In this document: positions 15,056-57,069 of the stretch, piece after piece
Layout of the letters: every line of letters starts with the position of its first letter
Numbering within the stretch: the first letter of the stretch is position 1
Assembly: GCA_964431835.1 (NCBI GenBank)
Contig: CAYSKO010000003.1
Span: 53,132-117,131, forward strand
From: an uncultured Planctomycetia bacterium
Lineage (GTDB): Bacteria > Omnitrophota > Gorgyraeia > 2-02-FULL-51-18
DNA length: 64,000 nt
Direction of reading: 5' to 3'
Notes under the pieces: model-generated
The model's input: the letters and a program-made list of their open reading frames with translations, nothing else
Told to the model about the DNA's origin: nothing
Database searches by the model: none
Program-made: the position numbers and the translations under genes

Positions 15056-15062
15056 GCGCTCT

Positions 15063-15218: not shown

Positions 15219-15307
15219 GGGAATCTCCTCGAATTTTAAGAATATAGAAAGTAAATCAGGAAGGACACCGAGGCCACTCTGCGTGGCTCCGCTTGGGTAG
15301 AACGGAT

Positions 15308-15921: not shown

Positions 15922-16894
15922 AAGCGTTCGTGAGGAAAAATAAGCCGAAATACTCGTTTTCGTCGGTCCACACTTCCTCGAGCTCAAGATCCGCGGCCAG
16001 CGCCAGACGCCGGAATCCGTCCACGTCGTATTTGTGACAGCGTTCCGTCAATATCGATTCCCCTTGTCCGAACCGGAACGTCTCCCCGTCGATCGTCGCG
16101 ATCTGCTCGCACGCACTCACCAGCCGCATCTCCACACGGCCTTCGCCCTCCGCGTAGACGGCCTCGTGCCGGAAATTATCCACGCGAATATCGCCGCCCA
16201 GCTCCCGGTTGATGCGAACGAGCAAATTCAGATTGAATGCGGACGTCAGCCCCTCTCGGTCGTCGTAAGCGCGCTCTAGAATCTCCCGCGGTTTCTTTAA
16301 GTCCACTCCGATGAGCAGGCCACCATTTGGATGGCAAAGCCTCGATATTTTCTCGAGAAGCTCGCGGGCTTGGGACGGTTCGAAGTTGCCGATCGTGGAA
16401 CCGGGGAAATAAACGATTTTGCGCGTCACGTAGCCGCCACACGGCGGTAGCGCGTAGAAATCGACAAAGTCGGCGAACACCGGGCAGACGTCGAGTCCCG
16501 GATAGGCGGTCGCAAAGCGCCGGGCCGTCTCGACCAGCGCGCCGCGGGCGATGTCGATCGGGACATAGCCGGCGGGAGACTGCATGCGGTCGAGAAGAAG
16601 CCGGGTCTTTCTCCCGGAACCGCTGCCGTATTCCACGAGCAGGCAGTCGGTCCCCATTCGCCCAACGATGTCGTCGATGTTCTCGCGCATGATCTTCGTC
16701 TCCACGCGACCGACGTAATAATCGGGGGTGTCGACGATGCGCTCGAAGAGCCACGACCCGCGTTCGTCGTAGAAATACTTGCACGGCAACTCTTTCTTCG
16801 GAAGGCGCAGACCGGCTAGAACTTCCTCCTTGAACGTCGTCTCCGGAGGAGAGAAATCGTATAACCGGGGCCCTTCGGTCTCCACGCGCATCAT
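15920..16894 (-). CDS. egtD: L-histidine N-alpha-methyltransferase (ergothioneine biosynthesis)
   Basis: YFYDERGSWLFERI, LLVEYGSGSGRKT, and the DUF2260 methyltransferase fold throughout. Confidence 0.85.
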   Translation of the reverse strand: MMRVETEGPRLYDFSPPETTFKEEVLAGLRLPKKELPCKYFYDERGSWLFERIVDTPDYYVGRVETKIMRENIDDIVGRMGTDCLLVEYGSGSGRKTRLLLDRMQSPAGYVPIDIARGALVETARRFATAYPGLDVCPVFADFVDFYALPPCGGYVTRKIVYFPGSTIGNFEPSQARELLEKISRLCHPNGGLLIGVDLKKPREILERAYDDREGLTSAFNLNLLVRINRELGGDIRVDNFRHEAVYAEGEGRVEMRLVSACEQIATIDGETFRFGQGESILTERCHKYDVDGFRRLALAADLELEEVWTDENEYFGLFFLTNA

Positions 16895-18165
16895 GAGCGG
16901 GCGTCCCGGGCGAGCCGGATGCCGGAAAACTGCCAGCGGTCCGACGGGCGGAAAAAATTACGGTACGAGACACGGATGTGGGAGCGCGGCGTCGCGCACG
17001 AGCCTCCGCGGAGAACCATGCGGTTCGACATGAATTTGCCGTTGTACTCCCCGAGCGCTCCGTCGGCTGGACGGAACCCCGGATAGGGAGCGTACGCGCT
17101 CGAGGTCCATTCCCAGACATCGCCGAAAAGCTGGGCGATCCCGCGGCCCCCGGGGGCGCGACGCGGACGGAGCCGCCCGGTTTCGAGAAAATTTCCTACG
17201 ATGCGTTCGGGACCCGCGGCGTATTCCCACTCAAATTCGGTCGGCAGGCGTGCGCCGCTCCACCGCGCGTAGGCGTCGGCTTCGTAAAAACTCACGTGGC
17301 AAACCGGCTCTTCGGGATCTACCGGACGCATCCCCTCCAAAGTGAAATGCCGCCAATCGCGCCCGTGACGCTCCCAGTACAGCGGGGCTTCCCATGTGTG
17401 GGTGCGCACTTCATCCCATCCGTCGGAAAGCCAGAGCTCCGGCCTGCGGTACCCGCCATCTTCGATGAACGCGGCGAATTCGCCGCACGTGGTCGGGCGC
17501 TCGGCCAAAAGAAATTCTTCGCAGCGGACACGGTGCCGCGGGGTCTCGTTATCGTAGGAAAAACCGCTCCCCGAGTGCCCCGCCTCCGTCTCCGCGGCGG
17601 GATACGCGCGCCAGCGCGCAGGCGTCCCGGCGGCCAGCTCCGCTTCTTCTTCGTCCGGCAAACGGTAGGCCGGCCGAAGCGGGTTCGACCCGAAGAGATG
17701 TTTCACGTCCGTCAGAAGGAGTTCCTGGTGCTGTTCCTCGTGATGGAGGCCCGTTTCGACGAGCCGTTCGAGCTCGGAGTCCGCGCCCGTGCCGATGAGC
17801 GCTTCCATTCGCGCGTCGACTGCGGCGCGGTAGCGCATCACTTCCGCGAGCGGCGGACGCGAAAGCAAACCGCGTTCTGCGCGCGGCTGACGTGGGCCGA
17901 GCGTTTCGTAGTACGAATTGAACAGATAGGCGTATTTGGGGTGGAACGGGCGGTGGCCTGAAACGAAAGGAGCGAGAACGAGAGTCTCAAAAAACCACGC
18001 CGTGTGTCCCAGATGCCATTTGACGGGACTCGCGTCGGGCATGGACTGGAGCGCGCAATCCTCGGCGCTCAGCGCCGAGGCGAGGGCCTCCGTGCGGGAG
18101 CGGACCTCCTTATAACGCGACACCAGGAGAAAATCGCAGGTGCGGGCATGCACGGTCGCGGCCAT
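16891..18165 (-). CDS. egtB: ergothioneine biosynthesis sulfoxide synthase EgtB (DinB_2 + FGE-sulfatase domains)
   Basis: DinB_2 N-domain HLGHTAWFFETLVL…HHEEQHQELLLTDV, then an FGE-type C-domain. Stop overlaps the egtD start (ATGA). Confidence 0.85.
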   Translation of the reverse strand: MAATVHARTCDFLLVSRYKEVRSRTEALASALSAEDCALQSMPDASPVKWHLGHTAWFFETLVLAPFVSGHRPFHPKYAYLFNSYYETLGPRQPRAERGLLSRPPLAEVMRYRAAVDARMEALIGTGADSELERLVETGLHHEEQHQELLLTDVKHLFGSNPLRPAYRLPDEEEAELAAGTPARWRAYPAAETEAGHSGSGFSYDNETPRHRVRCEEFLLAERPTTCGEFAAFIEDGGYRRPELWLSDGWDEVRTHTWEAPLYWERHGRDWRHFTLEGMRPVDPEEPVCHVSFYEADAYARWSGARLPTEFEWEYAAGPERIVGNFLETGRLRPRRAPGGRGIAQLFGDVWEWTSSAYAPYPGFRPADGALGEYNGKFMSNRMVLRGGSCATPRSHIRVSYRNFFRPSDRWQFSGIRLARDARS

Positions 18166-18192
18166 AGGGACCCCCAGATTGATATCCTTCTC

Positions 18193-18247
18193 TTATACGC
18201 GCCTGGCGATTAAAAGGGGGTTAGATTTGGATTAAAAGTTTTTAATC
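18193..18247 (-). promoter_or_regulatory. copy B of the 55-bp AT-rich stress element (upstream of egtB)
   Basis: TTATACGCGCCTGGCGATTAAAAGGGGGTTAGATTTGGATTAAAAGTTTTTAATC. The stop (TAA 18242-44) of the upstream 825-aa gene is embedded in the TTTTTAATC arm. TATAAG lies 26 nt before the egtB ATG on the coding strand. Confidence 0.5.
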
Positions 18248-20719
18248 GCGGGTTCTTTCGCGGGATTCTTTTTCGATCTCCCGCCGGCCGGTCTTGGGAT
18301 CCGTCCGCATCACCCACGCACGGGACGAAAGCGGAAGGCCGTCCAAGCTCGGTGCGTCCTCCTCGGGGACGTGGATGTCGACGACGAGGGGCCAGTGGTC
18401 TGACGATTGCCGGTCGAGCGAAGTCGTGGGGACGCGGATGCCGGTCACTTGGATGCGCGGGCCGACGAACACGTGGTCGATCCGCCCGAGCCCCATCCAC
18501 GTGTTCTGCGGACGGTGCGCGTTGAGATGAAGCTGCGTGTCGCGCAAAACCGAACCGATCTTGCGGTAAGCCGGAGACGTCGGCAGCGCATTAAAATCGC
18601 CGCACAGGACGACCGGCCCCGAACACGCCGAATTCGCGAGCCAGTCGGCGCCGGAGAGCGCCTCCGCCTGGAGCAAACGCTCGGCGGGCCAAATGCTCAG
18701 GTGGGAATTGATAAGCTGTAGCTTGGTGAACCCGATGTCGATCGCGACCCACATAGCCCCGCGCGGCTCGAGATCTTTGCGCAGCTGCGGAAGCGGCGCG
18801 ACTTTCACGAGGTACATCGGGAAACGCGAGAGGATCGCGTTTCCGTACTGGCCGTCCTCGATGAGGAAGGTCGGGTGGAAATGAAACGTCATGTCGAGCC
18901 GCCGGGCGATCTGTTCGACTTGGTCCACGCAGCCCGAGCGCGAGCGGCCGACGTCGAGCTCTTGTAGCGTGACGACGTCGGCGTCGTGCCGCGCGATCAC
19001 GCGCGCGATACGTTCGGGCGAGCATTTTCCGTCGAGGCCCACGCAGCCGTGCACGTTGTATGTCATGATCCGGACGGTACGGAGCGACGCAGGGCGGAAC
19101 GCGCGTTTCACGCGGCCGTCCGAGCGGCCGAGCACGCGGAGCGCGGCTTCCCGGATATGCGCGGGCCGGAGATAGGGCTTTTCGAGCGGCGGGAGTGGCG
19201 CGTCCGACGTCAAAAGCGCGAAGCCGTGCGTCTCCTGCGGTCCCGCCCCGGCGTGGCTGCCGTGTTCGAGCGGGAAACTGGACGACTGCGCTCCGTGACG
19301 CCAGCCGAGAATGATGAAGTCGCCTGCGTCGGGGTGATGAGCGAGAGCGGCGACGTCCCGCGCGGCTTCTTCGAGAAAAGGATGATCTGGTCCGAGGAGC
19401 CGCGCGGCATCGGCGGGCAAAGAAAAACGGCCGTCTTCGGTCCATACGAGCGCTTCTTCAGGCCGGCTCGGCAGCATCACCGCGGGCACGCCCAGACGAG
19501 CGGGCATCTCGGACGCGAAGCGTTCTTTGTCGCACGCGTCCATCTCGCCCGGCACGTAGACGTGCGCGATCGGACCCATCGCGGTCACGATCACGCGCGA
19601 AGGGGTCAGGCTTTCGTCGGCCGGCTCTTCCCCCGGGCGCGAGTCGAGCGCGTGCGACTCGAGAAGACCGGCCCCGGATTCCCAATGCGAAAGAGGCCCC
19701 GGATCGTCCGAATGGACGCGCTTGCCGAAAAATTCCGCGACCGCGGCCTCGAGCGAGCGACCGTTCTTCTGCGTATAGGAGTGGGCGTTTTCCTGGCCGT
19801 GATCGGAATAAACCCAAACGTCGTAATGGCGCTGCGCCGAGCGGTGGGCCGATCTCCACACGCGCCCGATCGCGTCGTCGATGCCGCGGAGCGACCAATG
19901 CGCGAACTTGGAAGTGGGCCCGCGCCGGTGCGACTGCTCGTCGTACCCGAGAAGATTCAAATGAATGACCGGCAGGCCGCGCGCGACGTCGATCGTCGCG
20001 CCTGCGATCACGAGCTCCCGCAGAAGCACGCAGACCGCCACGCGTGTCGGGACGAATTCGAGCTCCTTCCAAAAACGTTTACCCGCGAACGTTCCGCGTA
20101 CGCAGTCGATCGTGGCAAGGACGAACTCGATCACCATGAGAATCGCGGTGCGCAAGAGAATGTCGAAATAAAGCACCATCAGAATCGGAAGGACGAGCGG
20201 ATTCGGAGCGCAGAAAAGGGCCTTCCAGCCGATTTTCGCCGCGCAGAAGCGCGCGTCTTTCGCTCCCCCGGTGAACACGTTCGAATAGGAGCTGCCTTCG
20301 GCGAGGAGACCGGGAGCAACCTTCTCGAGTCGCCGTTCGACTTCGCTTGCCGACGCGGTGTCGTACATTTTGAATATGCGGCCGCTTTTTCGGTCGAGGT
20401 AGCTGAAGGCGGGCACGCAACTTTTGACGCCGTAGAAGATTTCCCCCTGGACGGAGGGCGTGTTGGAAGGCATGCCGGAATAATGGGAGTGGAGCGTGTA
20501 GTTTTCGTGATCGACGAGCCGCTTGAGGAACGGCATATCGTGCGCAGAGAGAGCGCGCGTCAGCTGCGGGCGGGAAAGACCGTCGATCTGGACCATGACG
20601 AGGCCCGGCGTCGTCGGCGAAGCGTTCGCGCGGGAAAGACCGAGAAGACGAATGGCCCACTCGCTCCGGCTGAAGACGCGACGGAACACCCGGACGACCC
20701 GGCTCAGTTTAAATACCAT
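18242..20719 (-). CDS. membrane-associated bifunctional phosphoesterase: N-terminal alkaline-phosphatase-superfamily (type I phosphodiesterase/nucleotide pyrophosphatase-like) domain, TM segments, C-terminal endonuclease/exonuclease/phosphatase (EEP) domain
   Basis: N-terminal MVQIDGLSRPQLT…HYSGMPSNTPSVQ (AP-superfamily metal site). Hydrophobic helices around residues 170-230. C-terminal EEP signature RIMTYNVHGCVGLDGK…VVTLQELD…GDFNALPTSPAY…SDHWPLVVDI. Confidence 0.6.
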   Translation of the reverse strand: MVFKLSRVVRVFRRVFSRSEWAIRLLGLSRANASPTTPGLVMVQIDGLSRPQLTRALSAHDMPFLKRLVDHENYTLHSHYSGMPSNTPSVQGEIFYGVKSCVPAFSYLDRKSGRIFKMYDTASASEVERRLEKVAPGLLAEGSSYSNVFTGGAKDARFCAAKIGWKALFCAPNPLVLPILMVLYFDILLRTAILMVIEFVLATIDCVRGTFAGKRFWKELEFVPTRVAVCVLLRELVIAGATIDVARGLPVIHLNLLGYDEQSHRRGPTSKFAHWSLRGIDDAIGRVWRSAHRSAQRHYDVWVYSDHGQENAHSYTQKNGRSLEAAVAEFFGKRVHSDDPGPLSHWESGAGLLESHALDSRPGEEPADESLTPSRVIVTAMGPIAHVYVPGEMDACDKERFASEMPARLGVPAVMLPSRPEEALVWTEDGRFSLPADAARLLGPDHPFLEEAARDVAALAHHPDAGDFIILGWRHGAQSSSFPLEHGSHAGAGPQETHGFALLTSDAPLPPLEKPYLRPAHIREAALRVLGRSDGRVKRAFRPASLRTVRIMTYNVHGCVGLDGKCSPERIARVIARHDADVVTLQELDVGRSRSGCVDQVEQIARRLDMTFHFHPTFLIEDGQYGNAILSRFPMYLVKVAPLPQLRKDLEPRGAMWVAIDIGFTKLQLINSHLSIWPAERLLQAEALSGADWLANSACSGPVVLCGDFNALPTSPAYRKIGSVLRDTQLHLNAHRPQNTWMGLGRIDHVFVGPRIQVTGIRVPTTSLDRQSSDHWPLVVDIHVPEEDAPSLDGLPLSSRAWVMRTDPKTGRREIEKESRERTRD

Positions 20720-20846
20720 CGGGACCGAACGGACCGCGGCGCCAGGACCACGCGATGGCCGCGCCGAGATAACCTATGACCGCGAACGCATACAGGCAGA
20801 GAAAAAGACTGAATACTTCTTCGGGGCGGAGCGGATAGAGGTTCAT
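20709..20846 (-). CDS. unannotated small membrane ORF (45 aa) overlapping the start of the phosphoesterase gene by 11 nt
   Basis: Minus-strand ATG at 20846, GAGGAGG 12 nt upstream. MNLYPLRPEEVFSLFLCLYAFAVIGYLGAAIAWSWRRGPFGPDGI. Below the track cutoff. Confidence 0.3.
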   Translation of the reverse strand: MNLYPLRPEEVFSLFLCLYAFAVIGYLGAAIAWSWRRGPFGPDGI

Positions 20847-20956
20847 GGGGTTGGCGGTCCTCCTCAGAACCGGTCGGGAATGACTCGGGCTTAACGTTTT
20901 TTTAAAGCGGGGCGAAACCCTCCGTAGACCCCCGGATCGATCCTGCCCAGAGAACG

Positions 20957-21010
20957 TTATAGCGCGGACGTAATTAAAGAGGCCTTAAATTAAGATTAGA
21001 AGTTTTTAAC
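20957..21010 (-). promoter_or_regulatory. copy C of the 55-bp AT-rich stress element (upstream of small ORF + phosphoesterase)
   Basis: TTATAGCGCGGACGTAATTAAAGAGGCCTTAAATTAAGATTAGAAGTTTTTAAC. TATAAC lies ~108 nt before the small-ORF ATG on the coding strand. Confidence 0.4.
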
Positions 21011-21149
21011 CCTGTCGGTGACTCCGATTGGAGCCACGAGCGAGCACTTCCACGCTCTAGGGAAATTCGCGTTCATCGCGATCTTGTTGCGGGAGTAAAG
21101 CCGCGCGTCGCGGCACTTTTGGAAAGCGAGGCGGGGGATTTGGGCGCCC

Positions 21150-22430
21150 TCAGACGACGACCGCCTCCGTGCTTTCTTTTTTTGCGAGCGATTCCTTCGT
21201 CGCCTTCCCGATGTTCTTGAAGATTTTCCATTCGGCTTTCAGGACGCGCATTGTCGTGGCCCACTTCCCGCCTGCGGCGTCGGTGCGGCGTCGGGACCGG
21301 CGCGTGAGACGCGAATACACTTCGAGCGCCTTGGCTGCGGAGCGCGGCATGGAATATTCGGCGGCGGTCTTAAGACACGCCTCCCGGAGGGCTGAGCGGG
21401 CCTCGGGCGAAAGATCCGCCGCCCATTCGAGCGCGCCCGCGAAGGTCTCTTCGTCTTCCGCCGGAAGGAGCCGGCCGCTCGTCAGGTCCACGACGATGTC
21501 ACGGACGCCGCAGGCGTCGACCGCGACGACAGGGACACCCGCCGAGAACGCTTCCGCGAGGACTAGGCCCTGCGTCTCGCTCTGCGACGCGAACGCGAAC
21601 ACGTCGATCGCGTGGTAGGCGTCGACGAGCGCCTGGTCCTTCACGATGCCGATGGCATGCACTCGGTCCGAAACCCCCGCTTCATCGAAAATCGCGTGGA
21701 CCGCGTCTTCCGAAGGCCCTTTGCCCGCCAGAAGGAAATGCGCTTCGGTGCGTTTTTTTAGGAACCGGGCGACGGCGCGCGCGGTGAACTCGAGATTTTT
21801 TTCCGGGGCGAGGCGTCCGATGTGCCCCACGACGAACGCGCCGGAGGGGATCCCCGCGCTCCGGCGGCACTCTTCGCGGTTGCCCGAAGCGAAGCGCTCG
21901 ACGTCGATCCCCGTCGGAACCACGTCGATGGGGCTTTCCACGCCGCGTTCGCGCAGCATGTGCATGACGGACGCGCTGGGCGCGATCACGTGGTCGGCGA
22001 GATTGGAATAGCCGACCGCCAGCTCCACCACGAAGCGCGTCAGACGCTCGGATTCGCCATGGGTGACGTAATGCATGTTCTGCTCGAAGAGGGTGTGGTG
22101 TGTGAAAACGAGCGGCACTTTGTGTTTATGGGCCACGCGCAGCGCGGTGGCGCCCATGAGAAAAGGGTGGTGCGAATGAACCACTTCCGGACGAAACTCT
22201 CCGAGCGCCTCGGCCAGCACGACCGGCACCGGAAATTTGAGCGAAAAGGGCGTACCGTGGACGTTCTTCATCGAAGGCACGCGGATGACTCCGCGCTCTT
22301 CGCCGTCCGTGCCCTCGAAAGCGGGCGCGACCACGACGACGTTGTGGCCGTAACGGCGGTATTCCTCGGTGAAAGCCTCGATGGATTTTTCCAAGCCGCC
22401 CACGATCGGCTTGTAGGTATTGGTCATCAT
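21150..22430 (-). CDS. GT4-family glycosyltransferase
   Basis: ORF 21150..22664 trimmed to ATG 22430 (MMTNTYKPIVGGLEKS, typical GT4 N-terminus). Catalytic C-domain E-x7-E region …SQSETQGLVLAEAFSAGVPVVA. Confidence 0.75.
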   Translation of the reverse strand: MMTNTYKPIVGGLEKSIEAFTEEYRRYGHNVVVVAPAFEGTDGEERGVIRVPSMKNVHGTPFSLKFPVPVVLAEALGEFRPEVVHSHHPFLMGATALRVAHKHKVPLVFTHHTLFEQNMHYVTHGESERLTRFVVELAVGYSNLADHVIAPSASVMHMLRERGVESPIDVVPTGIDVERFASGNREECRRSAGIPSGAFVVGHIGRLAPEKNLEFTARAVARFLKKRTEAHFLLAGKGPSEDAVHAIFDEAGVSDRVHAIGIVKDQALVDAYHAIDVFAFASQSETQGLVLAEAFSAGVPVVAVDACGVRDIVVDLTSGRLLPAEDEETFAGALEWAADLSPEARSALREACLKTAAEYSMPRSAAKALEVYSRLTRRSRRRTDAAGGKWATTMRVLKAEWKIFKNIGKATKESLAKKESTEAVVV

Positions 22431-22438
22431 GAGAATGT

Positions 22439-24718
22439 TCACCGAGCGCCTCCGAGCGGGTTGACTAATACGGAACCCGCGGACGTGCGGGCCGTCGCGG
22501 GAACGAAACCGGGCAGGCGAATCGCGATCTCCGGCCCTTCGCCACGCCACTGTCCGCTCCAAGTGACCCGCATGCCTCCGTTTTCTGGACGGAGTTCGAC
22601 CGAAACGGGGCCCCACGTGGTCGCCGTTTCTCCGAAGGACATCGGCTCGCCCGACGCGGTCCACTCCGGGGGAATCCCCGCGGCGATCACGAGCCTGTTT
22701 TCGGCCTCTTCTTCACGAACGAACATGTTACGGAGCATGAGAACCCATTCGGCTGCGGCCCAAACGTGCTGGCCATCCCCCATGCAGCCGCCTTTCGTCT
22801 GCGGGTGGACGGCCTCGGGCCACTGCCCCGTGGGCGACGCCAGGCGAGCGATGGCCTGCGTGAGATCGAAATGACGCGGGTCGCCCGCCCGCAGGAGGAT
22901 CTGCGCCACGTGGAGGGTGAGGTAGGGATTGATTCCGGAATGGCTGATCTGCTGGAAGAAGCCGCCTTCCACGAAGTAATCGCGCATGAGAAAATTCGCC
23001 GTGTCCGTCAGCCGGGGGTCGGCCGGCTTCCAAAGCTGGAGTGGGTAACCGCCCGCGATCGAACCGATCGAACCCGCGTCGAGGCGGCGGTACGGCGACG
23101 CCGGCACCGCCGCAGTGCCGGGAAAAGTCGCCGACGCGACGCTGCGGTCGACGCACGCTGAGAAATCGGCGGATTCGCGCCGGAAGACGGCCGCGTCGCC
23201 GGAGGCGCCGTACCGGTCGCAAAGCCACGCCGCCGCCTCGAGTCCCGCGATCGACCAGAAATCGTCCCAATAGTAAAAATCGTTGGGCCCCAAATGTTCC
23301 GCGCTGAATCCCGCGGGCATGAGTCCGGCGTGGCCTTTGCCGGAATCGGAGGCCAGACGTTTACGGACGATCCATTTGCCGGCTCTCAAGATCGAGTTCT
23401 TCCAAGCGGCCTTCGGGTCTTTTCCGGTCAGCTCGCACCAGCGGCGCATGGTCCAGAGCGCCTCTCCATTCGAATCCCACTCCCCTTCCTGCGAGAGGAA
23501 ATAACCGAACGGCGTTTGCCGGGAGGGAAAGCGATCGATCACCCGTTCCGCGCGGTGCGCGAGCCCCACGCAGATGAGCGCGTGGAGGATAAACGCGGCG
23601 TCCCGGAACCAGAAACGTTTGTAGGTGTAGGGACCGGGGTAAACATCGCCGGGCGAATGGAGAACGAGCGTGCGGATCGCCGCCTCGTAGAGAAAACGGA
23701 AATGCGCGTCCGGCACCACCAGCCGCGAGTGGCCCCGCAGGCTTTCCTCCCATTCCATCGGTTCGGGATCTTTCGGCGCGTGCTTGAGCGCCGACCGGAG
23801 CGCCGATTTCTTCGGGAGAGACGTGGAGGCGACGATCGTCCGCCGCTTGCCCGGTTCCAGACGGTAGAGCGCCGCGGCCGTCGCCATGCCGACGTCGCAT
23901 TTGACTTCACCCTCGCTTGCGGTGTCGTCCAGGCGCCGGGAGACGTCGCCGCGTTCGTAGCGCGAGAAGCGCAACCGTTCGGGCGCCTCGCTGAGCCGCA
24001 CGTAATTCTTCCCGTTCACCTTCCAGCCCGGCTGGTCTTCGGTCGAGGCGATGTGATGGATGAAGCTCACTCCTTCGGGGTTGTAGGGCCGAAGCGAAAC
24101 CACGAGCCACGCGGGCACGTCGGAAAGCGCTTCGTAACGCATGCGGCACACGGTCTCCCCGGCGGCGTGACCGACTTCCGCGCGGGCGAAAAGCTCGCGG
24201 CCGGCGGAGGCTGAACGCGTCTCCACGGAAAGCCCGTCTCCCATCGAAAGTTTTTGCTCGGCGTCGCGGACGCGCGCGGGAACCAGCGGAGCAGCTCCGT
24301 CCGGGAAAATCCACGCGTCCACCGACCAGCCGTCGAAAAGGGGCGTCACGAGACCCCGGGGATCGACGATCGGCATTTCGTCGCTGTCCGGAACGCCGAC
24401 GGCGGTCCAATTCCGGTGCGTGAGATTGATGTGGGTGACGTTGAAAGCGCGCGGCACGAAAGCCACGTCGTACGGGTCGAACTGGCGCTCGACCCAAAAC
24501 GGCCAGATCCAGTCCAGATTATGCTGAATCGCCTGGCTGTTCATGAGACCCCGGGCCTGGAGGACGGCGCCGGCGCGCAAAAGCTCGGTCGGGGCCATCA
24601 CTTCGCTGGGCTGGGAAAAACGCTGAAGGCTCGAAAGAAGCGAGATCGGGTCGAGGAAGCCCTGTGCGCGCGCCACGCGGCGCACGACAAACCTCCACGG
24701 AATCCATTTCATCCACAT
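22439..24718 (-). CDS. (alpha/alpha)6-barrel glycoside hydrolase, GH63/GH15-like (possible compatible-solute glycoside hydrolase)
   Basis: 759 aa. Motifs FWFRDAAFILHAL and GYFLSQEGEWDSNGEALWT are typical of six-hairpin glycosidases. The exact family is not resolvable by eye. Confidence 0.5.
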   Translation of the reverse strand: MWMKWIPWRFVVRRVARAQGFLDPISLLSSLQRFSQPSEVMAPTELLRAGAVLQARGLMNSQAIQHNLDWIWPFWVERQFDPYDVAFVPRAFNVTHINLTHRNWTAVGVPDSDEMPIVDPRGLVTPLFDGWSVDAWIFPDGAAPLVPARVRDAEQKLSMGDGLSVETRSASAGRELFARAEVGHAAGETVCRMRYEALSDVPAWLVVSLRPYNPEGVSFIHHIASTEDQPGWKVNGKNYVRLSEAPERLRFSRYERGDVSRRLDDTASEGEVKCDVGMATAAALYRLEPGKRRTIVASTSLPKKSALRSALKHAPKDPEPMEWEESLRGHSRLVVPDAHFRFLYEAAIRTLVLHSPGDVYPGPYTYKRFWFRDAAFILHALICVGLAHRAERVIDRFPSRQTPFGYFLSQEGEWDSNGEALWTMRRWCELTGKDPKAAWKNSILRAGKWIVRKRLASDSGKGHAGLMPAGFSAEHLGPNDFYYWDDFWSIAGLEAAAWLCDRYGASGDAAVFRRESADFSACVDRSVASATFPGTAAVPASPYRRLDAGSIGSIAGGYPLQLWKPADPRLTDTANFLMRDYFVEGGFFQQISHSGINPYLTLHVAQILLRAGDPRHFDLTQAIARLASPTGQWPEAVHPQTKGGCMGDGQHVWAAAEWVLMLRNMFVREEEAENRLVIAAGIPPEWTASGEPMSFGETATTWGPVSVELRPENGGMRVTWSGQWRGEGPEIAIRLPGFVPATARTSAGSVLVNPLGGAR

Positions 24719-24780
24719 ACGTTTGGCGGCGTCCCTTCGGTCGGAGAGAGCTCTATTTTACCACGAAAGACGCGCGGAGG

Positions 24781-26310
24781 CTATTGCGGCGCGGGGACGT
24801 CTAGGGGCTTCAGATTCCGCGTCGCTGGGCCGGTAAGGACCGAGCCGTCGCACCCGAACCGCGACCCGTGGCACGGGCAGTCGAAGCTTTTCTCCGCGCC
24901 GTTCCACTGGACGACGCATCCCAGATGCGTGCACGTGGCGGAGAACACGCTCAGTTCGCCCGTTTCGTCCCGGAAAGCCGCGGCTTTGCCCGGTCCGCGG
25001 CGGAAAATGCCGCCTTCGCCGGGAGCGAGGTCTTCGGGGGAGTCCAGATCCTCCTTTTTCACGCGGTCGGCGGCGAATTGGGTGACGACGTTGAGGTTTT
25101 CCTCGAGGAAGGTCATCGCCGAGCGGACGTTCTTGCGCGTCGGCTCGTAGATATCCGCCCACGCGTTCTTCTTTCCGGCGATCAGGTCCGCCAAAAGCAC
25201 CGCGGCGAGCGTGCCGTACGTCATTCCGTTTCCCGAATAGCCCGTGGCGATGTAGATGCTGTCGTGATAGGGACTGCGGCCGATGAAAGCCAACGAATCG
25301 ACGGGCTCGATCACCTGACCCGACCATCGGTACTCCGCTTCCCCGGCCATCGGGTAACGGGCGCGCGTCCATTCGTCCAATTCGAGGAACGGGCGCTCGT
25401 AATCGTCGTTCTGCCCCGTCTTGTGATCGCGGCCGCCGACGATCAGGTAATCGGAGGTGGGTTCCCGGTGCACGCGCACGTAGTTGTACGGGTCGTCCGT
25501 GTCCCACGCCAGCACATCCGGGACCGAGTCCTTCGGAACGCGGTACGCGGTGGCGTACGTGCGGTACGCGGATTCCTTCAGGAAGAAAAGGACGTTTTTG
25601 ATCGGTGAATGCGTTGCGACGACGACCCTGTTGGCCGTGATCTTGAATCCGCCACGCGTCTGCACGCCGTCCGGCTCGACCCGCTCGACGAACGTGTCGG
25701 TGAAGATCGTCCCCTTTTGCCGGACGATCGCCTTCACGAGACCTTCGAGATAGCGCATCGGATGGAACGCCGCCTGGCGCGGAACGCGCAGCGTCGGACC
25801 CGTTTCGAAGAAAGGGTAAGGCCCGCTCGGGAGAAGCTCCGCCTCGAAACCTGCAGACCGTGCGCCGACCAGCTCTTTCTCGAGAATCTTCGAACCGTCT
25901 TCCGGATGCAGGAAAAGGTAGCCGTCGACCCGGCGAAAATCGCAGTCGATTTTTTCCTCGGCAACGATGGATTCGATCCGGTCGATCGCCTCGCACTGGC
26001 TCGCGGCCACCGCGCGCGCCGTCTCGGCGCCGTGCATCTTTTGGATCTCCGCGTAGCCGAAATCCAGAAACGCCGAAATATGCGCCGTCGTGCGGCCTGT
26101 CTCGCCGGAGCCCACCGCGCCGGAGTCCACCAAGGCCACGCGGTACCCTTCCTTCGAGAGAAGGTACGCGAGCGTCGTTCCGGTGATGCCGGCCCCGACG
26201 ACCACCACGTCGACGTCGATGTCGCGGTCGAGCGTTTCGAATCGAAGCGAAGGCGCGGTGGCGGTCCAAAGCGGTTCGAGATTCCCCGGCGTGCGGTTGG
26301 AGCGGATCAT
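24781..26310 (-). CDS. FAD-dependent oxidoreductase (DAO family) fused to a C-terminal Rieske [2Fe-2S] domain
   Basis: ORF 24781..27102 trimmed to ATG 26310 (MIRSNRTPG…); the upstream part is Arg-rich and overlaps the real Gfo gene. Dinucleotide fold VVVVGAGITGTTLAYLL. Rieske motifs CTHLGC…CPCHGSRF at the C-terminus. Confidence 0.75.
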   Translation of the reverse strand: MIRSNRTPGNLEPLWTATAPSLRFETLDRDIDVDVVVVGAGITGTTLAYLLSKEGYRVALVDSGAVGSGETGRTTAHISAFLDFGYAEIQKMHGAETARAVAASQCEAIDRIESIVAEEKIDCDFRRVDGYLFLHPEDGSKILEKELVGARSAGFEAELLPSGPYPFFETGPTLRVPRQAAFHPMRYLEGLVKAIVRQKGTIFTDTFVERVEPDGVQTRGGFKITANRVVVATHSPIKNVLFFLKESAYRTYATAYRVPKDSVPDVLAWDTDDPYNYVRVHREPTSDYLIVGGRDHKTGQNDDYERPFLELDEWTRARYPMAGEAEYRWSGQVIEPVDSLAFIGRSPYHDSIYIATGYSGNGMTYGTLAAVLLADLIAGKKNAWADIYEPTRKNVRSAMTFLEENLNVVTQFAADRVKKEDLDSPEDLAPGEGGIFRRGPGKAAAFRDETGELSVFSATCTHLGCVVQWNGAEKSFDCPCHGSRFGCDGSVLTGPATRNLKPLDVPAPQ

Positions 26311-26321
26311 GGGACGGCCTC

Positions 26322-27467
26322 TTAAGTGACCGAAGGCGACTGCGCGTGCACGAGCGGCGGTTCGCGCTTCACCGGCGGACGGTCGATTTCCTGCGAAAGG
26401 TTCGGACGCTTGGCCCGGCTGAATTCCTCGAGCCGGACCGTCCGGCCGGTTTCCGCCGAGCGGTAGATCGCGCGGATAATGCGAACGTCGGCGAGGCCTT
26501 CGGCGCCCGAGGGTTCCGGATATTCCCCTTTTCGGATGCAATTCGAAAAATAGAGAAGCTCCGAAGCGAACTGGTCGTGCCGCTTGAACGTTTTTTTCAC
26601 GGTTTTTCCGCCGACGGTGAGCACGTGTCCCAGCTCCAGATCGTAACTGTACGCAGGTTCGACGCGCAACTTGCCCTTCGTACCGCAGATATCGTACGTC
26701 GAGAAGCCGGCGGCGCTGAAGCTGCACGTGAACGTCGCGATGCGGTCGCCGGGAAAGCGCAGGACCACGCCCGCCATCTCGTCGACCTCCCGGAAACGGG
26801 GATCGCCGGACGATTCGGTGAGCGCGGTCACCTCTAAAGGCTCCGCGCGGAAGACGTAACGCGCCGCGTTGATGCAGTAGACGCCGATGTCGTAGACGGT
26901 TCCGCCGCCGAGCGCCGCCTGCAGGCGGATGTCGCCCGGCTTCACGTTCATGGAGAACGCCGAATGGAAGAACCGGACCTCGCCGAGCCGGCCCGACCGG
27001 GCGATCTCGACGGCCTTCAGGTTCGCCTCCTCGAAATGGAGCCGATAGGCAACCATGAGGAAGACGCCGCTTTCGTCCGCGGCCTCGATCATGCTCCTGC
27101 ATTCCTCCTCGGTAACCGCCATCGGCTTCTCGCAGAGGACGTGAACGCCGGCACGCGCGGCACGCACTGCGTAATCGCAGTGCAGATTGTTCGGGAGCGC
27201 GATGTAGACCGCGTCGATCTTTCCGCTCCGCATCGCCTCGTCATACTCGTCGTACGAGTACGTCCGCACGCCGTAGCGGCGGCCGACCTTCTGGTTTTTG
27301 ACCGGATCGTCGGAGATAAGCGCGACGAGCTCCGAATTCTTGGAAGCGTGCTCGAACGCCGGAAGGACCGCCGCTTGGGCAATGTGGCCGATCCCCACCA
27401 CGGCGTAGCGGACGCGCCCGCTTCCTGCCTTGGCGCGGACTTTCGATTTGCGGGCGACGTCGATCAT
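26322..27467 (-). CDS. Gfo/Idh/MocA-family NAD(P)-dependent sugar oxidoreductase
   Basis: Rossmann N-domain VRYAVVGIGHIAQAAVLPAF…, EKP motif, and the Gfo/Idh/MocA C-domain. Confidence 0.8.
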   Translation of the reverse strand: MIDVARKSKVRAKAGSGRVRYAVVGIGHIAQAAVLPAFEHASKNSELVALISDDPVKNQKVGRRYGVRTYSYDEYDEAMRSGKIDAVYIALPNNLHCDYAVRAARAGVHVLCEKPMAVTEEECRSMIEAADESGVFLMVAYRLHFEEANLKAVEIARSGRLGEVRFFHSAFSMNVKPGDIRLQAALGGGTVYDIGVYCINAARYVFRAEPLEVTALTESSGDPRFREVDEMAGVVLRFPGDRIATFTCSFSAAGFSTYDICGTKGKLRVEPAYSYDLELGHVLTVGGKTVKKTFKRHDQFASELLYFSNCIRKGEYPEPSGAEGLADVRIIRAIYRSAETGRTVRLEEFSRAKRPNLSQEIDRPPVKREPPLVHAQSPSVT

Positions 27468-27910
27468 AACGGCCTCCGGACGCCTTTGGGGCGCGCGGGA
27501 CGAGAAACGTCCTCAAGAGTGGCGCCGGCCATGTCCGTGTCGCCGGTGTCCACCGCGAGATCGCCAAGCGAGACGATTCCAACGAGCCGCTGCTCTTTAT
27601 TCAAAACCACGAGGCGTCGGATCTGCTTCTCGCCCATCAGTTTTGCGGCCTCTTGCACGTCCTGGTCCTCGAATCCGTAAACGACGTCCGGGGTCACGAT
27701 CTCCCGTACCTTGGCGACATTGGGGTCCAGGCCTTCGGCGACGGCACGGATCGCGATGTCACGGTCCGTGATCATCCCGATGAGGCGGTGCCCCTCCAGG
27801 ACGGGCAACGGCCCCACGTCGAGCCGCTTCATTTTCTCGGCCGCTTCCTTGATCGTGGCGTCGGATTCGATCACTTCGACCTGTTTGGTCATCACGTCTT
27901 TAAGCAACAT
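27464..27910 (-). CDS. CBS-domain pair protein
   Basis: ORF 27464..27970 trimmed to ATG 27910 (MLLKDVMTKQVEV). Two CBS motifs. Stop overlaps the Gfo start (ATGA). Confidence 0.7.
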   Translation of the reverse strand: MLLKDVMTKQVEVIESDATIKEAAEKMKRLDVGPLPVLEGHRLIGMITDRDIAIRAVAEGLDPNVAKVREIVTPDVVYGFEDQDVQEAAKLMGEKQIRRLVVLNKEQRLVGIVSLGDLAVDTGDTDMAGATLEDVSRPARPKGVRRPL

Positions 27911-27974
27911 GGTTACCGGCCTTTCGTGGGGAGCGGTGCTTTGAGAGGCGGACGGAGTCCGTCCCTTCACTTGG

Positions 27975-28030
27975 TTATAGACCCCAAGTGATTAAAGACC
28001 GATTAAATTCCGATTAAAAAATTTTAATCC
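27975..28030 (-). promoter_or_regulatory. copy D of the 55-bp AT-rich stress element (upstream of the CBS-Gfo-FAD/Rieske-GH-GT4 operon)
   Basis: TTATAGACCCCAAGTGATTAAAGACCGATTAAATTCCGATTAAAAAATTTTAATC, with three GATTAAA direct repeats at ~13-bp spacing. The rlmN stop (TAA 28024-26) is embedded in the TTTTAATC arm. TATAAC lies 63 nt before the CBS ATG. Confidence 0.5.
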
Positions 28031-29085
28031 TTGGCGGGCGAGGAGAGGCGGGCGGATCGCAGCTGGCCGCAAGCAGCTTGAATGTCGCGACCCTTCGAGA
28101 AACGGACGGTGGTGCGGACGCCGGCTTCCTGGAGAATCTGCTGGAAACGCACGACCTCCGCGTAATTCGGCGCGTCGTGCGGAAATTCCTCGATCGCGTT
28201 GTACGGGATGAGGTTGACCTTGCAAAGCATCCCGCGGAGCAGGTTCCCGAGTTCTCTCGCTTCTTTCTCCGACGCGTTGATTCCCTTGATCAGAATGTAC
28301 TCGAACGTGATCGCGCGTTTGGTGACCTTCGCATACTGCTTGCAGGCTTCGATCAAAGGCTTCACCGGATACGCGCGGTTCACGGGCATGATGGCGCCGC
28401 GCACCGCGTCGTTCGGGCCGTGAAGGGACACCGAAAGCTCCACCTGCAGACCCTCCTGCGTGAGCTGCTGAATCTTCGGCACGATGCCGCAGGTCGAGAT
28501 CGTGATCTTGCGCGCGCCCAAGCCCAGGCCCGCCGGCGAATTCAAGACGCGGATAGCCTTCATTAGCTCGTCGTAATTGTCGAACGGCTCGCCGATCCCC
28601 ATGAAGACGATGTTCGTGAGTTTCTTGTCCGGCGAAGTGTCGCGCGCGGCGAGCACCTGCAGGAGGATCTCCGACATCTTGAGGTTCCTGAAGAATCCCG
28701 CCTGCCCGCTCGCGCAGAACGCGCAGTGGAACTTACAGCCGACCTGCGACGAAACGCAGACCGTGCGGCGGTCGTCGAGCGGCATGTACACGGCCTCGAC
28801 GTAATCATTCTCGCCTATTTTAAGAAGAAGTTTCGTGCTGGCGTCGCCTTCGGAAAGCTGGCGCTCGACGACCGGCGGGATCGCCAGTTCGAACGTCTCG
28901 GAAAGGCGCTTGCGGAGATCGACCGAAAGATCGGTCATCTTGTCGAATTCGTACACGCCTTTCTCGAAGACCCATTTCAGAACCTGCTCGGCGCGGTACG
29001 GCTCGACGCTCATCTCCTCGAATTTCTTGCGGAGCGCTTCGGGGGTGTGGTCGAGGAGGTTGGGTTTCGGTCTAGCCACGGACAA
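28024..29085 (-). CDS. rlmN: 23S rRNA (adenine2503-C2)-methyltransferase, radical SAM
   Basis: CKFHCAFCASG radical-SAM cluster motif and an RlmN-specific N-terminus. TTG start at 29085. Confidence 0.85.
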   Translation of the reverse strand: MSVARPKPNLLDHTPEALRKKFEEMSVEPYRAEQVLKWVFEKGVYEFDKMTDLSVDLRKRLSETFELAIPPVVERQLSEGDASTKLLLKIGENDYVEAVYMPLDDRRTVCVSSQVGCKFHCAFCASGQAGFFRNLKMSEILLQVLAARDTSPDKKLTNIVFMGIGEPFDNYDELMKAIRVLNSPAGLGLGARKITISTCGIVPKIQQLTQEGLQVELSVSLHGPNDAVRGAIMPVNRAYPVKPLIEACKQYAKVTKRAITFEYILIKGINASEKEARELGNLLRGMLCKVNLIPYNAIEEFPHDAPNYAEVVRFQQILQEAGVRTTVRFSKGRDIQAACGQLRSARLSSPAKD

Positions 29086-57057: not shown

Positions 57058-57069
57058 TTTCGATCCTCC

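What the first reader, a model, noticed from the sequence alone, without database searches (positions are those of the whole stretch)
21150..27910. Uncharacterised operon: CBS protein, Gfo/Idh/MocA dehydrogenase, FAD oxidase fused to a Rieske 2Fe-2S domain, six-hairpin glycoside hydrolase, GT4 glycosyltransferase, driven by stress-element copy D
Five tightly packed genes (ATGA overlaps and 8-12-nt gaps) form an apparent sugar-modifying pathway. The GT4 and GH63/15-like pair suggests synthesis and turnover of a glycoside compatible solute (compare glucosylglycerate or mannosylglycerate systems). The DAO-family flavoprotein with a C-terminal Rieske domain is an uncommon fusion, related to opine or sarcosine oxidase-type two-component oxidases. 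The whole operon lies behind element copy D, with a hairpin-containing 63-nt leader.
Basis: inference. Interest (0 to 1): 0.55.

Follow-up and report, generated by a model that had tools for sequence, protein, structure and literature searches.

The report
Conserved glycosyltransferase–GH15-like pair, stress operon
The five genes are real and probably co-transcribed, but the conserved part is a sugar-adding enzyme paired with a large unannotated sugar-cleaving-type protein, which across many bacterial phyla sit beside membrane-lipid genes, pointing to an unknown membrane glycolipid rather than a soluble stress sugar.

Summary
All five minus-strand genes exist as described: a CBS pair, Gfo/Idh/MocA, DAO+Rieske, a 759-aa protein and a GT4. 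They lie behind a real, repeated promoter-like element.

Corrections:
- One junction is 62 nt, not 8-12 nt.
- The leader hairpin is not significant.
- The DAO-Rieske fusion is common, not rare.

U759 belongs to a very large family annotated only as "hypothetical". In 66 of 68 informative genomes from many phyla it sits next to an orthologous GT4. Often a two-domain phosphoesterase (alkaline-phosphatase-type + EEP) follows; here that gene is at 18242-20719, outside the finding, behind its own element copy.

Recurrent neighbours are VTT/DedA-type proteins, GtrA (sometimes fused to U759), Aas/PlsC-type acyltransferases and patatin. CBS, Gfo and DAO-Rieske appear in 0 of 80 reference genomes. Gfo and DAO-Rieske are linked to U759 only in a narrow clade.

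Best reading (0.42): a stress-induced module that makes or remodels a lipid-anchored alpha-glycoside, analogous to PlcP-Agt. The compatible-solute reading remains possible (0.2). Function is untested.

The parts
27974..28028 (-). Promoter-like element, copy D. It reads ATTAAAA, then three T(n)TAATC repeats at an 11-bp period (core 27990-28016), then TATAAC (27979-27974). It starts at the rlmN stop codon. A 7-bp inverted repeat, CACTTGG-N9-CCAAGTG, brackets the -10-like box.
   Evidence: Sequence read. Repeat family. The pattern is found 5 times against 0.05 expected. Seven copies from two genomes are aligned.
27464..27910 (-). CBS-pair protein, 148 aa. First gene of the operon.
   Evidence: Pfam CBS, 94 bits, two stretches. 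Same gene call on contigs L001 and L002.
26322..27467 (-). Gfo/Idh/MocA NAD(P)-dependent sugar-type oxidoreductase, 381 aa. Its start overlaps the CBS stop (ATGA).
   Evidence: Pfam GFO_IDH_MocA N- and C-terminal domains. Best NCBIfam model is D-xylose 1-dehydrogenase Gfo6, 251 bits against a cut-off of 350.
24781..26310 (-). FAD-dependent (DAO family) oxidoreductase with a C-terminal Rieske 2Fe-2S domain, 509 aa. This is the YhfW-type architecture.
   Evidence: Pfam DAO 166 bits and Rieske 48.5 bits. More than 7,800 matches, and all 120 listed share the architecture. Only its closest relatives (59% identity) are also directly upstream of a U759 homologue.
22439..24718 (-). U759: a 759-aa protein with a GH15-like fold (N-terminal helices, beta-sandwich, (alpha/alpha)6 barrel, C-terminal beta-sandwich). 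It belongs to a large unannotated family and is one half of the conserved core.
21150..22430 (-). GT4 (GT-B, retaining-type) glycosyltransferase, 426 aa, 8 nt after U759. It is the other half of the conserved core.
   Evidence: Pfam Glyco_transf_4 122 bits and Glycos_transf_1 109 bits. An E-x7-E motif (ETQGLVLAE) is read in the sequence. Best NCBIfam models are MshA, alpha-monoglucosyl-DAG synthase and GlcNAc-PG synthase, all below cut-off. It is next to U759 in 66 of 68 informative loci.
21095..21114 (-). Possible weak terminator after GT4: GCCGCG-acg-CGCGGC followed by TTTAC.
   Evidence: Read from the sequence. The consensus scan did not call it.
20956..21009 (-). Second copy of the same promoter-like element (core 20972-20998, CTATAAC 20962-20956), in the 430-nt spacer between GT4 and the phosphoesterase gene.
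20709..20846 (-). Small ORF of 45 aa with one hydrophobic helix, overlapping the start of the phosphoesterase gene. It is conserved in a related genome.
   Evidence: Gene call on L001 and L002. Translation. A homologous 33-aa ORF lies before the orthologue in L089 and shares LxLYxFAVIGYxxAAI. Kyte-Doolittle 19-residue maximum 2.2.
18242..20719 (-). 825-aa two-domain phosphoesterase. The N-terminal domain is alkaline-phosphatase/NPP-type and carries a hydrophobic helical hairpin (about residues 176-247). The C-terminal domain is endonuclease/exonuclease/phosphatase (EEP). It is the frequent third member of the conserved module and lies outside the finding's coordinates.
   Evidence: Pfam Exo_endo_phos 90.7 bits, Phosphodiest 36.6 bits and PGAP2IP-type EEP 35.5 bits. 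1,668 homologues; all 120 listed carry the EEP domain and 115 also have the Phosphodiest hit on record. It follows GT4 in 27 of 48 loci with enough sequence. Model pLDDT 82. Foldseek matches are generic EEP enzymes and phosphonoacetate hydrolase. Hydrophobic segment with KD19 2.31 at residues 179-197.

Best explanation
The evolutionarily conserved unit is not the five-gene set. It is the pair U759 (GH15-like) plus GT4, here followed by a two-domain alkaline-phosphatase/EEP phosphoesterase at 18242-20719 that has its own copy of the same promoter element.

Proposed mechanism (inferred):
1. The retaining GT4 transfers a sugar from a nucleotide sugar to a lipid acceptor at the cytoplasmic face of the membrane. 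The acceptor is diacylglycerol-type or, less likely, polyprenyl-phosphate-type. The product is an alpha-glycoside.
2. U759, a GH15-type inverting alpha-glycosidase or transglycosidase-like enzyme, processes, elongates or turns over that alpha-glycoside.
3. The phosphoesterase acts on phosphodiester head groups, either to supply the lipid acceptor or to remodel the product. This is analogous to PlcP-Agt lipid remodelling.
4. In other lineages a VTT/DedA-type or GtrA-type membrane protein at the same locus would move the lipid across the membrane.

In this genome and a few relatives the pair has been recruited into an operon with a CBS protein, a Gfo-type sugar dehydrogenase and a DAO-Rieske flavoprotein. 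These may modify the head group or serve an unrelated redox role. The operon sits behind a direct-repeat promoter element. The same element also precedes egtB-egtD (ergothioneine), a DUF2383 gene that is followed by a TreZ-like amylase, and a 121-aa/SRPBCC/168-aa gene set. That pattern suggests a stress regulon.

Shown: gene content, folds, synteny statistics and element enrichment. Inferred: substrate class, direction of catalysis and regulation.
For: Core pair:
- GT4 lies beside the U759 homologue in 66 of 68 loci with at least 1.6 kb downstream.
- The AP/EEP protein is present in 27 of 48 loci with at least 5.5 kb downstream.
- CBS, Gfo and DAO-Rieske are present in 0 of 80.
- In Microbulbifer hainanensis the module is a self-contained VTT-U759-GT4-AP/EEP block with unrelated flanks.

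Lipid theme:
- A VTT/DedA-type gene (19 loci) or GtrA (20 loci, directly upstream) is present in 38 of 68 loci with at least 1 kb upstream. GtrA is fused to the N-terminus of U759 in at least 10 of the 120 best hits.
- A PP-binding + PlsC-type acyltransferase is inserted between U759 and GT4 in 24 loci.
- A full Aas-like acyltransferase, an MFS transporter (possibly LplT-like) and a hydrolase lie next to the pair in L090.
- Patatin is present in 7-8 loci.
- Two of the GT4's three best curated-model hits are lipid glycosyltransferases: alpha-MGlcDAG synthase, 126 bits over the full length, and GlcNAc-PG synthase, 110 bits.
- The AP/EEP protein has a hydrophobic hairpin (KD19 2.31), and a conserved one-helix small ORF precedes it.

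U759:
- GH15-like motifs (FWFRDAAF, GEWDSNGEALW, YYWDDFW, QWPE...GDGQHVWAAAEW) have invariant acidic residues across a family that is 26-54% identical to U759.

Precedent: a phospholipase gene next to a glycosyltransferase gene for phospholipid-to-glycolipid remodelling (PlcP-Agt, PMC4796936).

Regulation: element enrichment and conservation in locus L089.
Against: - No lipid gene other than the AP/EEP protein and the small ORF is near the pair in this window or in its closest relative L089.
- U759 and GT4 themselves have no transmembrane or strongly amphipathic segment.
- The EEP domain's closest structures are Tdp2, nocturnin and uncharacterised EEPs, not sphingomyelinase or phospholipase C. 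The AP domain's closest structure is phosphonoacetate hydrolase. A phospholipase role is therefore unsupported by fold.
- The hydrophobic hairpin could be a buried cap rather than a membrane anchor.
- The GT4 scores are far below every equivalog cut-off.
- A hydrolase-type enzyme translationally coupled to the synthase is unusual for a simple biosynthetic route.
- No experiment of any kind bears on this family.
Confidence: 0.42

Rival explanations
1. One reading: synthesis and turnover of a soluble glycoside compatible solute. GT4 makes a phosphorylated alpha-glycoside of a small acceptor, as sucrose-phosphate, mannosylfructose-phosphate or MshA-type synthases do. The AP/EEP protein dephosphorylates it. 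The GH15-like enzyme hydrolyses it when stress is relieved.
For: - The synthase + phosphatase + hydrolase logic matches the three conserved proteins.
- The best single NCBIfam hit of the GT4 is MshA, an inositol-phosphate glycosyltransferase, and its PDB matches include MshA-like proteins, BshA and a sucrose-phosphate-synthase-like protein.
- The genes sit in an apparent stress island with egtB/egtD, a TreZ-like amylase and DUF2383 behind one shared element.
- Several hosts are halophilic or marine: Thiohalophilus, Methylohalobius, Microbulbifer, Kiloniellales.
- Known solved GH15 relatives act on soluble alpha-glucosides.
Against: - Recurrent neighbours are membrane or lipid proteins: VTT/DedA-type, GtrA and GtrA-U759 fusions, Aas/PlsC-type acyltransferases, patatin.
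- From general knowledge, known solute pathways use HAD or histidine-type phosphatases and GT20/GT55/GT78/GT81 synthases (GT4 in the case of sucrose). None uses an 825-aa two-domain phosphoesterase with a hydrophobic hairpin.
- No GH63/MGH-type sequence signal in U759.
- Synthase and hydrolase are translationally coupled in 66 of 68 loci, which would set up a futile cycle.
Confidence: 0.2
2. Cytoplasmic alpha-glucan or oligosaccharide metabolism. GT4 acts as a glycogen-synthase or GlgM-like or oligosaccharide-elongating enzyme. U759 acts as a glucoamylase, glucodextranase or dextran-dextrinase-like trimming or transglucosylating enzyme. This would be comparable to the hydrolase-plus-GT4 logic of mycobacterial polymethylated polysaccharide clusters.
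For: - The GT4 matches archaeal GlgA structures (67 bits) and the glgA_Coryne model.
- TreZ-like amylase and GDE-like genes lie nearby in the window and in L089.
- Acyltransferases at the locus could acylate an oligosaccharide.
Against: - Glycogen or trehalose genes are not among the recurrent neighbours across the 80 loci.
- GtrA fusions and VTT proteins have no role in cytoplasmic glucan metabolism.
- U759 fails all GH15 sequence models.
Confidence: 0.1
3. The five genes form one clade-specific pathway that oxidatively modifies or catabolises a glycoside. U759 cleaves it, Gfo oxidises the released sugar, and DAO-Rieske oxidises an amine or alcohol aglycone. The CBS protein acts as a nucleotide-sensing regulator.
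For: - Gfo-DAO/Rieske-U759-GT4 order is conserved in locus L089, whose AP/EEP orthologue is about 60% identical to the window's.
- The two closest DAO-Rieske homologues (59% identity) also sit directly upstream of a long same-strand ORF. In L092 that ORF is a U759 homologue at 68% identity.
- Gfo is closest to a sugar 1-dehydrogenase model.
Against: - 0 of 80 reference loci with U759 carry Gfo, DAO-Rieske or CBS.
- More distant DAO-Rieske homologues (51-56% identity) sit in unrelated contexts.
- A GT4 is biosynthetic, not catabolic.
- The 62-nt gap separates the two halves.
Confidence: 0.12

Closest known systems
PlcP-Agt phospholipid-to-glycolipid remodelling operons (SAR11, Phaeobacter, Agrobacterium; PMC4796936)
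   Same: A phosphoesterase gene sits next to a glycosyltransferase gene. There is stress-type control from a direct-repeat promoter element. The inferred logic is to free or alter a lipid acceptor and then glycosylate it.
   Different: - No PlcP-type protein was noticed at the locus. The phosphoesterase here is a fused alkaline-phosphatase/EEP protein whose fold matches are not phospholipases.
- There is an obligatory third partner, the GH15-like U759, which PlcP-Agt systems lack.
- The element sequence is not a known Pho box.
- Phosphate control and lipid products are untested.
- Whether the GT4 is an Agt orthologue could not be tested.
Bacterial GH15 enzymes (glucoamylase 1lf6, glucodextranase 1ulv, dextran dextrinase 9ju0)
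   Different: - 12-14% identity; no hit to the Pfam GH15 model; a profile search gives only E = 0.43 to 1lf6.
- U759 has about 100 extra conserved N-terminal residues and a C-terminal beta-sandwich.
- It reads WDD where GH15 reads WEE.
- It is cytoplasmic, coupled to a GT4, and sometimes fused to GtrA.
   Same: The logic of glycoside synthase, phosphatase and six-hairpin hydrolase, and the association with stress.
   Different: - The synthase family is GT4, not GT81, GT55 or GT78.
- The phosphatase type differs.
- The neighbours are membrane-lipid genes.
Bacillus subtilis YhfW (FAD-linked oxidoreductase with C-terminal Rieske domain; PMC7317962)
   Same: The same DAO + Rieske domain order, and a similar length as recalled (about 510 aa). 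Function is unknown in both.
   Different: Direct homology to YhfW was not tested here. YhfW is not reported next to glycosyltransferase or GH genes.

Membership tests
CAZy GH15 | Significant sequence similarity to GH15 members (Pfam Glyco_hydro_15 or the equivalent) | tested here: not met
   No Pfam or NCBIfam hit at E <= 0.01. phmmer against PDB finds nothing relevant. A family profile against PDB gives only 1lf6 at E = 0.43.
CAZy GH15 | (alpha/alpha)6 catalytic barrel preceded by the bacterial-type N-terminal beta-sandwich | tested here: met
CAZy GH15 | Catalytic general acid and general base carboxylates at the conserved barrel positions | tested here: inconclusive
   D485 (in YYWDDFW) and E635 (in QWPE) are invariant across 66 divergent members and sit at motif positions analogous to GH15. 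No residue-level superposition could be made.
CAZy GH63 (GgH/MgH type) | Sequence match to GH63 or MGH1-like models | tested here: not met
CAZy GT4 | GT-B fold with Glyco_transf_4 N-domain, Glycos_transf_1 C-domain and an E-x7-E motif | tested here: met
   PF13439 at 122 bits and PF00534 at 109 bits, both above cut-off. ETQGLVLAE is read in the sequence.
alpha-Monoglucosyl-diacylglycerol synthase (NF049988) | Score at or above the curated equivalog cut-off | tested here: not met
   125.9 bits against a cut-off of 400, although the alignment covers positions 6-390 of 398.
MshA, D-inositol-3-phosphate glycosyltransferase (TIGR03449) | Score at or above the curated equivalog cut-off | tested here: not met
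   129.6 bits against a cut-off of 462.5, with a partial alignment.
PlcP-Agt lipid-remodelling system | A PlcP-type phospholipase C adjacent to the glycosyltransferase | not tested
   No search with a PlcP sequence or model was run. The adjacent phosphoesterase is an AP/NPP + EEP fusion, with fold matches to Tdp2, nocturnin and phosphonoacetate hydrolase.
PlcP-Agt lipid-remodelling system | Pho-box control and induction by phosphate starvation; glycolipid product | not testable with these tools
   The element has 11-bp-period direct repeats ending about 10 nt before a -10-like box. That geometry resembles a Pho box. The sequence identity of the binding protein, the inducing signal and the product all need experiments.
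Gfo/Idh/MocA oxidoreductases | N-terminal Rossmann domain and C-terminal alpha/beta domain | tested here: met
   PF01408 at 105 bits, PF22725 at 94.5 bits and PF02894 at 73 bits. The D-xylose 1-dehydrogenase equivalog is not met (251 against 350).
YhfW-type DAO-Rieske flavoproteins | DAO FAD domain followed by a C-terminal Rieske 2Fe-2S domain in one polypeptide of about 510 aa | tested here: met
   PF01266 at residues 34-376 and PF00355 at residues 425-501. All 120 listed homologues share the architecture. Sequence comparison with YhfW itself was not done.
Alkaline-phosphatase superfamily (NPP/Phosphodiest) + EEP fusion | Both domains above Pfam cut-offs with conserved metal and nucleophile motifs | tested here: met
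   PF01663 at 36.6 bits (cut-off 23) and PF03372 at 90.7 bits (cut-off 24.5). Invariant D46, T87, D260, H264, D306, H307 and H489 in the AP part, and N555, E587, D708, N710 and H775 in the EEP part, across 27 sequences.

The most novel reading that the evidence does not exclude
U759 founds a new GH15-like glycoside hydrolase or transglycosidase family whose only genomic partner is a dedicated GT4. Together, helped by an AP/EEP phosphoesterase or an Aas-type acyltransferase and by a GtrA- or VTT-type lipid translocator, they would make a previously unrecognised membrane glycolipid. That lipid would be widespread in Omnitrophota, Planctomycetota, Proteobacteria, Nitrospinota and others. In this clade it would be stress-induced and further oxidised by Gfo and DAO-Rieske.
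Probability: 0.3. Interest if true: 0.7.

Novelty: new variant of a known kind. Interest (0 to 1): 0.5.

Why it matters
U759 is about 750 aa and has at least 4,600 homologues. The closest 120 are 54-66% identical to it, and the named ones span several phyla. Even so it has no Pfam or NCBIfam model, no informative name and no solved relative by sequence. Its near-obligatory pairing with one GT4 lineage, and its recurrent membrane-lipid neighbours, mark an unexplored glycoconjugate pathway.

If the product is a membrane glycolipid, it would add a widely distributed lipid class, and probably a new CAZy family, to bacterial envelope biology and stress physiology. Cultured hosts (Microbulbifer hainanensis, Methylobacter sp., Thiohalophilus thiocyanatoxydans) make the question testable now.

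For this window the practical lessons are narrower. The 'five-gene pathway' is a clade-specific composite. The functionally linked third gene lies outside the reported coordinates.

Tried and rejected
- Sequence-family assignment of the 759-aa protein. Pfam, NCBIfam, phmmer against PDB and a profile against PDB gave nothing significant.
- Names for distant family members. All were 'hypothetical'. The organism name for the window's proteins was not given by any source.
- Plasmid collection. Only three weak (22-25% identity) partial hits, to 'discoidin domain-containing' proteins; uninformative.
- 'DAO-Rieske is a rare fusion tied to this pathway'. Rejected for the family as a whole. Kept for a narrow clade.
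- 'The EEP domain is a sphingomyelinase or phospholipase C'. Not supported by fold matches or by NCBIfam or PDB sequence searches.
- Leader hairpin as a regulatory structure. Not better than shuffles.
- Sigma-70 promoters or intrinsic terminators inside the operon. None above background.
- Amphipathic membrane helices in the U759 N-terminus and the GT4 C-terminal tail. Hydrophobic-moment values are unremarkable.
- Literature searches for this gene combination found no description of it. One search failed on syntax.

Full report
OBSERVATION

All five genes lie on the minus strand.
- CBS pair, 27464-27910, 148 aa from MLLKD.
- Gfo/Idh/MocA, 26322-27467, 381 aa.
- DAO + Rieske, 24781-26310, 509 aa.
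- A 759-aa protein here called U759, 22439-24718.
- GT4, 21150-22430, 426 aa.

Two metagenome contigs with 100% identical proteins carry the same gene calls. Pfam confirms four of the five assignments above gathering cut-offs.

Spacing, read from the coordinates: CBS/Gfo overlap by ATGA; Gfo to DAO is 11 nt; DAO-Rieske to U759 is 62 nt; U759 to GT4 is 8 nt. No sigma-70-type promoter was found in the scanned stretch 18000-28200, and terminator-like sites did not exceed background. Co-transcription is plausible but unproven.

THE SIX-HAIRPIN PROTEIN

U759 hits nothing in Pfam or NCBIfam and nothing relevant among PDB sequences.

An AlphaFold model built on 26 homologues has pLDDT 81 and pTM 0.84. 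It shows low-confidence N-terminal helices, a beta-sandwich (about residues 130-300), an (alpha/alpha)6 barrel (about 335-665) and a C-terminal beta-sandwich.

A family profile finds only glucoamylase 1lf6 among PDB sequences, at a non-significant E of 0.43. It aligns FWFRDAAF to VWSRD.

Across 66 members that are 26-54% identical to U759, R372, D373, E413, D415, S472, E474, H475, D485, E635 and W653 are invariant. The fold claim is therefore right. Membership of GH15 or GH63 by sequence is not met. The family is best described as an unannotated GH15-like family.

HOW BIG AND HOW CONSERVED

The word-indexed search gives 4,637 homologues. The best 120 are 54-66% identical over the full length. 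Those with a source name come from Omnitrophota, Gamma- and Deltaproteobacteria, Methylobacter and Rhodovibrionaceae, and are called 'hypothetical'. About ten carry an N-terminal GtrA domain. The exhaustive search gives 2,256 clusters at the 50% level with E <= 1e-3. Distant members occur in Bacteroidota and Thermotogota MAGs.

WHAT IS CONSERVED AROUND IT

I fetched 80 loci from one-genome-per-species references and located homologues of all six window proteins by tblastn. I then counted only loci with enough flanking sequence.

| Feature | Count |
|---|---|
| GT4 beside U759 | 66 of 68 loci |
| 825-aa AP/EEP homologue | 27 of 48 loci |
| PP-binding + PlsC-type acyltransferase | 12 of 48 loci (both in 2, neither in 11) |
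| VTT/DedA-type gene upstream | 19 of 68 loci |
| GtrA gene upstream | 20 of 68 loci (either VTT or GtrA in 38) |
| CBS, Gfo, DAO-Rieske | 0 of 80 loci |

Clustering of neighbour ORFs and Pfam scans identified the acyltransferase (24 loci in all), the VTT domain, GtrA and a patatin phospholipase.

Further individual loci:
- One locus has the pair next to a full Aas-like AMP-binding/PP-binding/acyltransferase, an MFS transporter and a hydrolase.
- Another has U759-GT4-AP/EEP.
- In the cultured Microbulbifer hainanensis the block VTT-U759-GT4-AP/EEP is flanked by unrelated genes.

Two main variants follow. Proteobacteria carry VTT-U759-GT4-AP/EEP. Omnitrophota and some Planctomycetes carry GtrA(-fused)-U759-acyltransferase-GT4, sometimes with patatin.

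THE THIRD GENE IN THIS WINDOW

The AP/EEP gene lies at 18242-20719, just outside the finding. It has Exo_endo_phos at 90.7 bits, Phosphodiest at 36.6 bits and a PGAP2IP-type EEP hit. It has 1,668 homologues; all 120 listed carry the EEP domain and 115 also have the Phosphodiest hit on record. Metal and nucleophile motifs are conserved in both domains.

It is separated from GT4 by 430 nt. That spacer contains another copy of the promoter element and a 45-aa one-helix ORF. The small ORF is conserved before the orthologue in a related genome.

Its model (pLDDT 82) matches generic EEP enzymes (Tdp2, nocturnin, uncharacterised bacterial proteins) and phosphonoacetate hydrolase. The fold gives no support for a specific phospholipase activity. 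A hydrophobic helical hairpin (KD19 2.31 at residues 179-197) may anchor it to the membrane or may be a buried cap.

THE UPSTREAM THREE GENES

All 120 listed homologues of the DAO-Rieske protein have the same DAO-Rieske architecture, and more than 7,800 proteins matched the query. It is the architecture described for B. subtilis YhfW, whose function is unknown (PMC7317962). Homologues at 51-56% identity sit in unrelated contexts.

The closest relatives tell a different story.
- In a Candidatus Eisenbacteria MAG, whose AP/EEP protein is 60% identical to the window's, the order is Gfo-DAO/Rieske-U759-GT4. Then come three inserted genes, the AP/EEP gene, DUF2383, an amylase and other stress-type genes.
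- The two best DAO-Rieske hits (59% identity) are each followed after 61-87 nt by a long same-strand ORF. In L092 that ORF is 68% identical to U759.

Gfo is closest to a D-xylose 1-dehydrogenase model but falls below its cut-off.

THE ELEMENT

Copy D begins at the rlmN stop codon. It reads ATTAAAA, then three T(n)TAATC repeats at an 11-bp period, then TATAAC 10 nt later. The core pattern occurs 5 times against 0.05 expected, always on the minus strand.

The copies precede these genes (coordinates mapped):
- DUF2383, followed by a 51-aa ORF and a TreZ-like amylase
- egtB-egtD
- the small ORF and the AP/EEP gene
- the CBS operon
- a 121-aa/SRPBCC/168-aa set

Two copies occur in the Eisenbacteria-like locus, and 23 columns are invariant across seven copies.

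From general knowledge of PhoB, direct repeats at an 11-bp period ending about 10 nt before a -10 box are the usual geometry for OmpR/PhoB-type activators. The binding protein and the signal are unknown. The gene set looks like a general-stress regulon. The leader hairpin is not significant.

MECHANISM

A retaining GT4 makes alpha-glycosides, and GH15-type enzymes act on alpha-glucosides. The pair therefore plausibly makes and then processes one alpha-glycoside.

The nature of the acceptor is the open point. The repeated recruitment of two unrelated putative lipid translocator families at the same position argues for a lipid-anchored product made at the cytoplasmic face. So do the GtrA-U759 fusions, the Aas/PlsC acyltransferases, patatin, and the GT4's resemblance to alpha-MGlcDAG and GlcNAc-PG synthases. 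The closest known logic is PlcP-Agt remodelling (PMC4796936).

Against this, the window's own clade shows no lipid genes beyond the AP/EEP protein and the small ORF. The phosphoesterase fold is non-specific. U759 and GT4 show no membrane segments.

I put the lipid model at about 0.42, the compatible-solute model at 0.2, a clade-specific five-gene oxidative pathway at 0.12 and alpha-glucan or oligosaccharide metabolism at 0.1.

VERDICT

The notable result is a very large, well-conserved, unannotated GH15-like family locked to a GT4 partner. I call it a new variant of a known kind, and the function remains untested.

Noticed in passing
window 15882-15908, 18208-18234, 20972-20998, 27990-28016, 57514-57540 (minus strand), plus a degenerate copy at about 57578-57604; L089 7985-8011 and 14545-14571: A promoter-like element of about 55 nt: TTAAAAA, then three T(n)TAAT/C cores at an 11-bp period, then CTATA(A/C). 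It precedes DUF2383, egtB-egtD, the small ORF and AP/EEP gene, the CBS operon and a 121-aa/SRPBCC/168-aa set. It is conserved in a related MAG whose AP/EEP protein is about 60% identical. The geometry resembles sites for OmpR/PhoB-type activators.
   Followed up: partly
window 27968-27990 (minus strand): Only in copy D, a 7-bp inverted repeat CACTTGG-N9-CCAAGTG brackets the -10-like TATAAC. It could be an extra operator specific to the CBS operon.
   Followed up: no
window 20709-20846 (minus strand); L089 8620-8721: A small ORF with one hydrophobic helix overlaps the start of the AP/EEP gene (45 aa here, 33 aa in the related MAG). Both share the motif LxLYxFAVIGYxxAAI, so it is probably a real micro-protein partner of the phosphoesterase.
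   Followed up: partly
window 15920-18165 (minus strand): An EgtB-like gene (DinB_2 + FGE-sulfatase) and an EgtD-like gene (Methyltransf_33), which are ergothioneine biosynthesis genes, lie directly downstream of the AP/EEP gene behind their own element copy.
   Followed up: no
window 13172-15832 (minus strand): DUF2383, a 51-aa ORF, and a CBM48/alpha-amylase/DUF3459 protein (TreZ-like, suggesting trehalose synthesis from glucan) behind another element copy. The Eisenbacteria-like locus L089 also has DUF2383 next to an alpha-amylase/DUF3459 gene (no CBM48 hit on record), plus GDE-like, BON and YflT genes.
   Followed up: no
window 57601-61140 (minus strand) and 56002-57435: A 1,179-aa multi-PAS sensor protein with a CheR_N domain lies directly upstream of two element copies. 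Those copies precede a 121-aa unknown protein, an SRPBCC protein and a 168-aa unknown protein. The sensor is a candidate regulator of the element-controlled set.
   Followed up: no
loci L008-L080 (for example L009 12268-13737, L033 12262-13731): In Omnitrophota and Planctomycetes a gene of about 489 aa sits between U759 and GT4. It encodes the C-terminal subdomain of an adenylating enzyme, a carrier-protein domain, a hydrophobic segment and a PlsC acyltransferase. It tends to replace the AP/EEP gene (both present in 2 of 48 loci).
   Followed up: partly
window 21095-21114 (minus strand): A GC-rich hairpin, GCCGCG-acg-CGCGGC followed by TTTAC, lies 36 nt after the GT4 stop. It is a possible weak terminator separating the operon from the AP/EEP transcription unit.
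   Followed up: no
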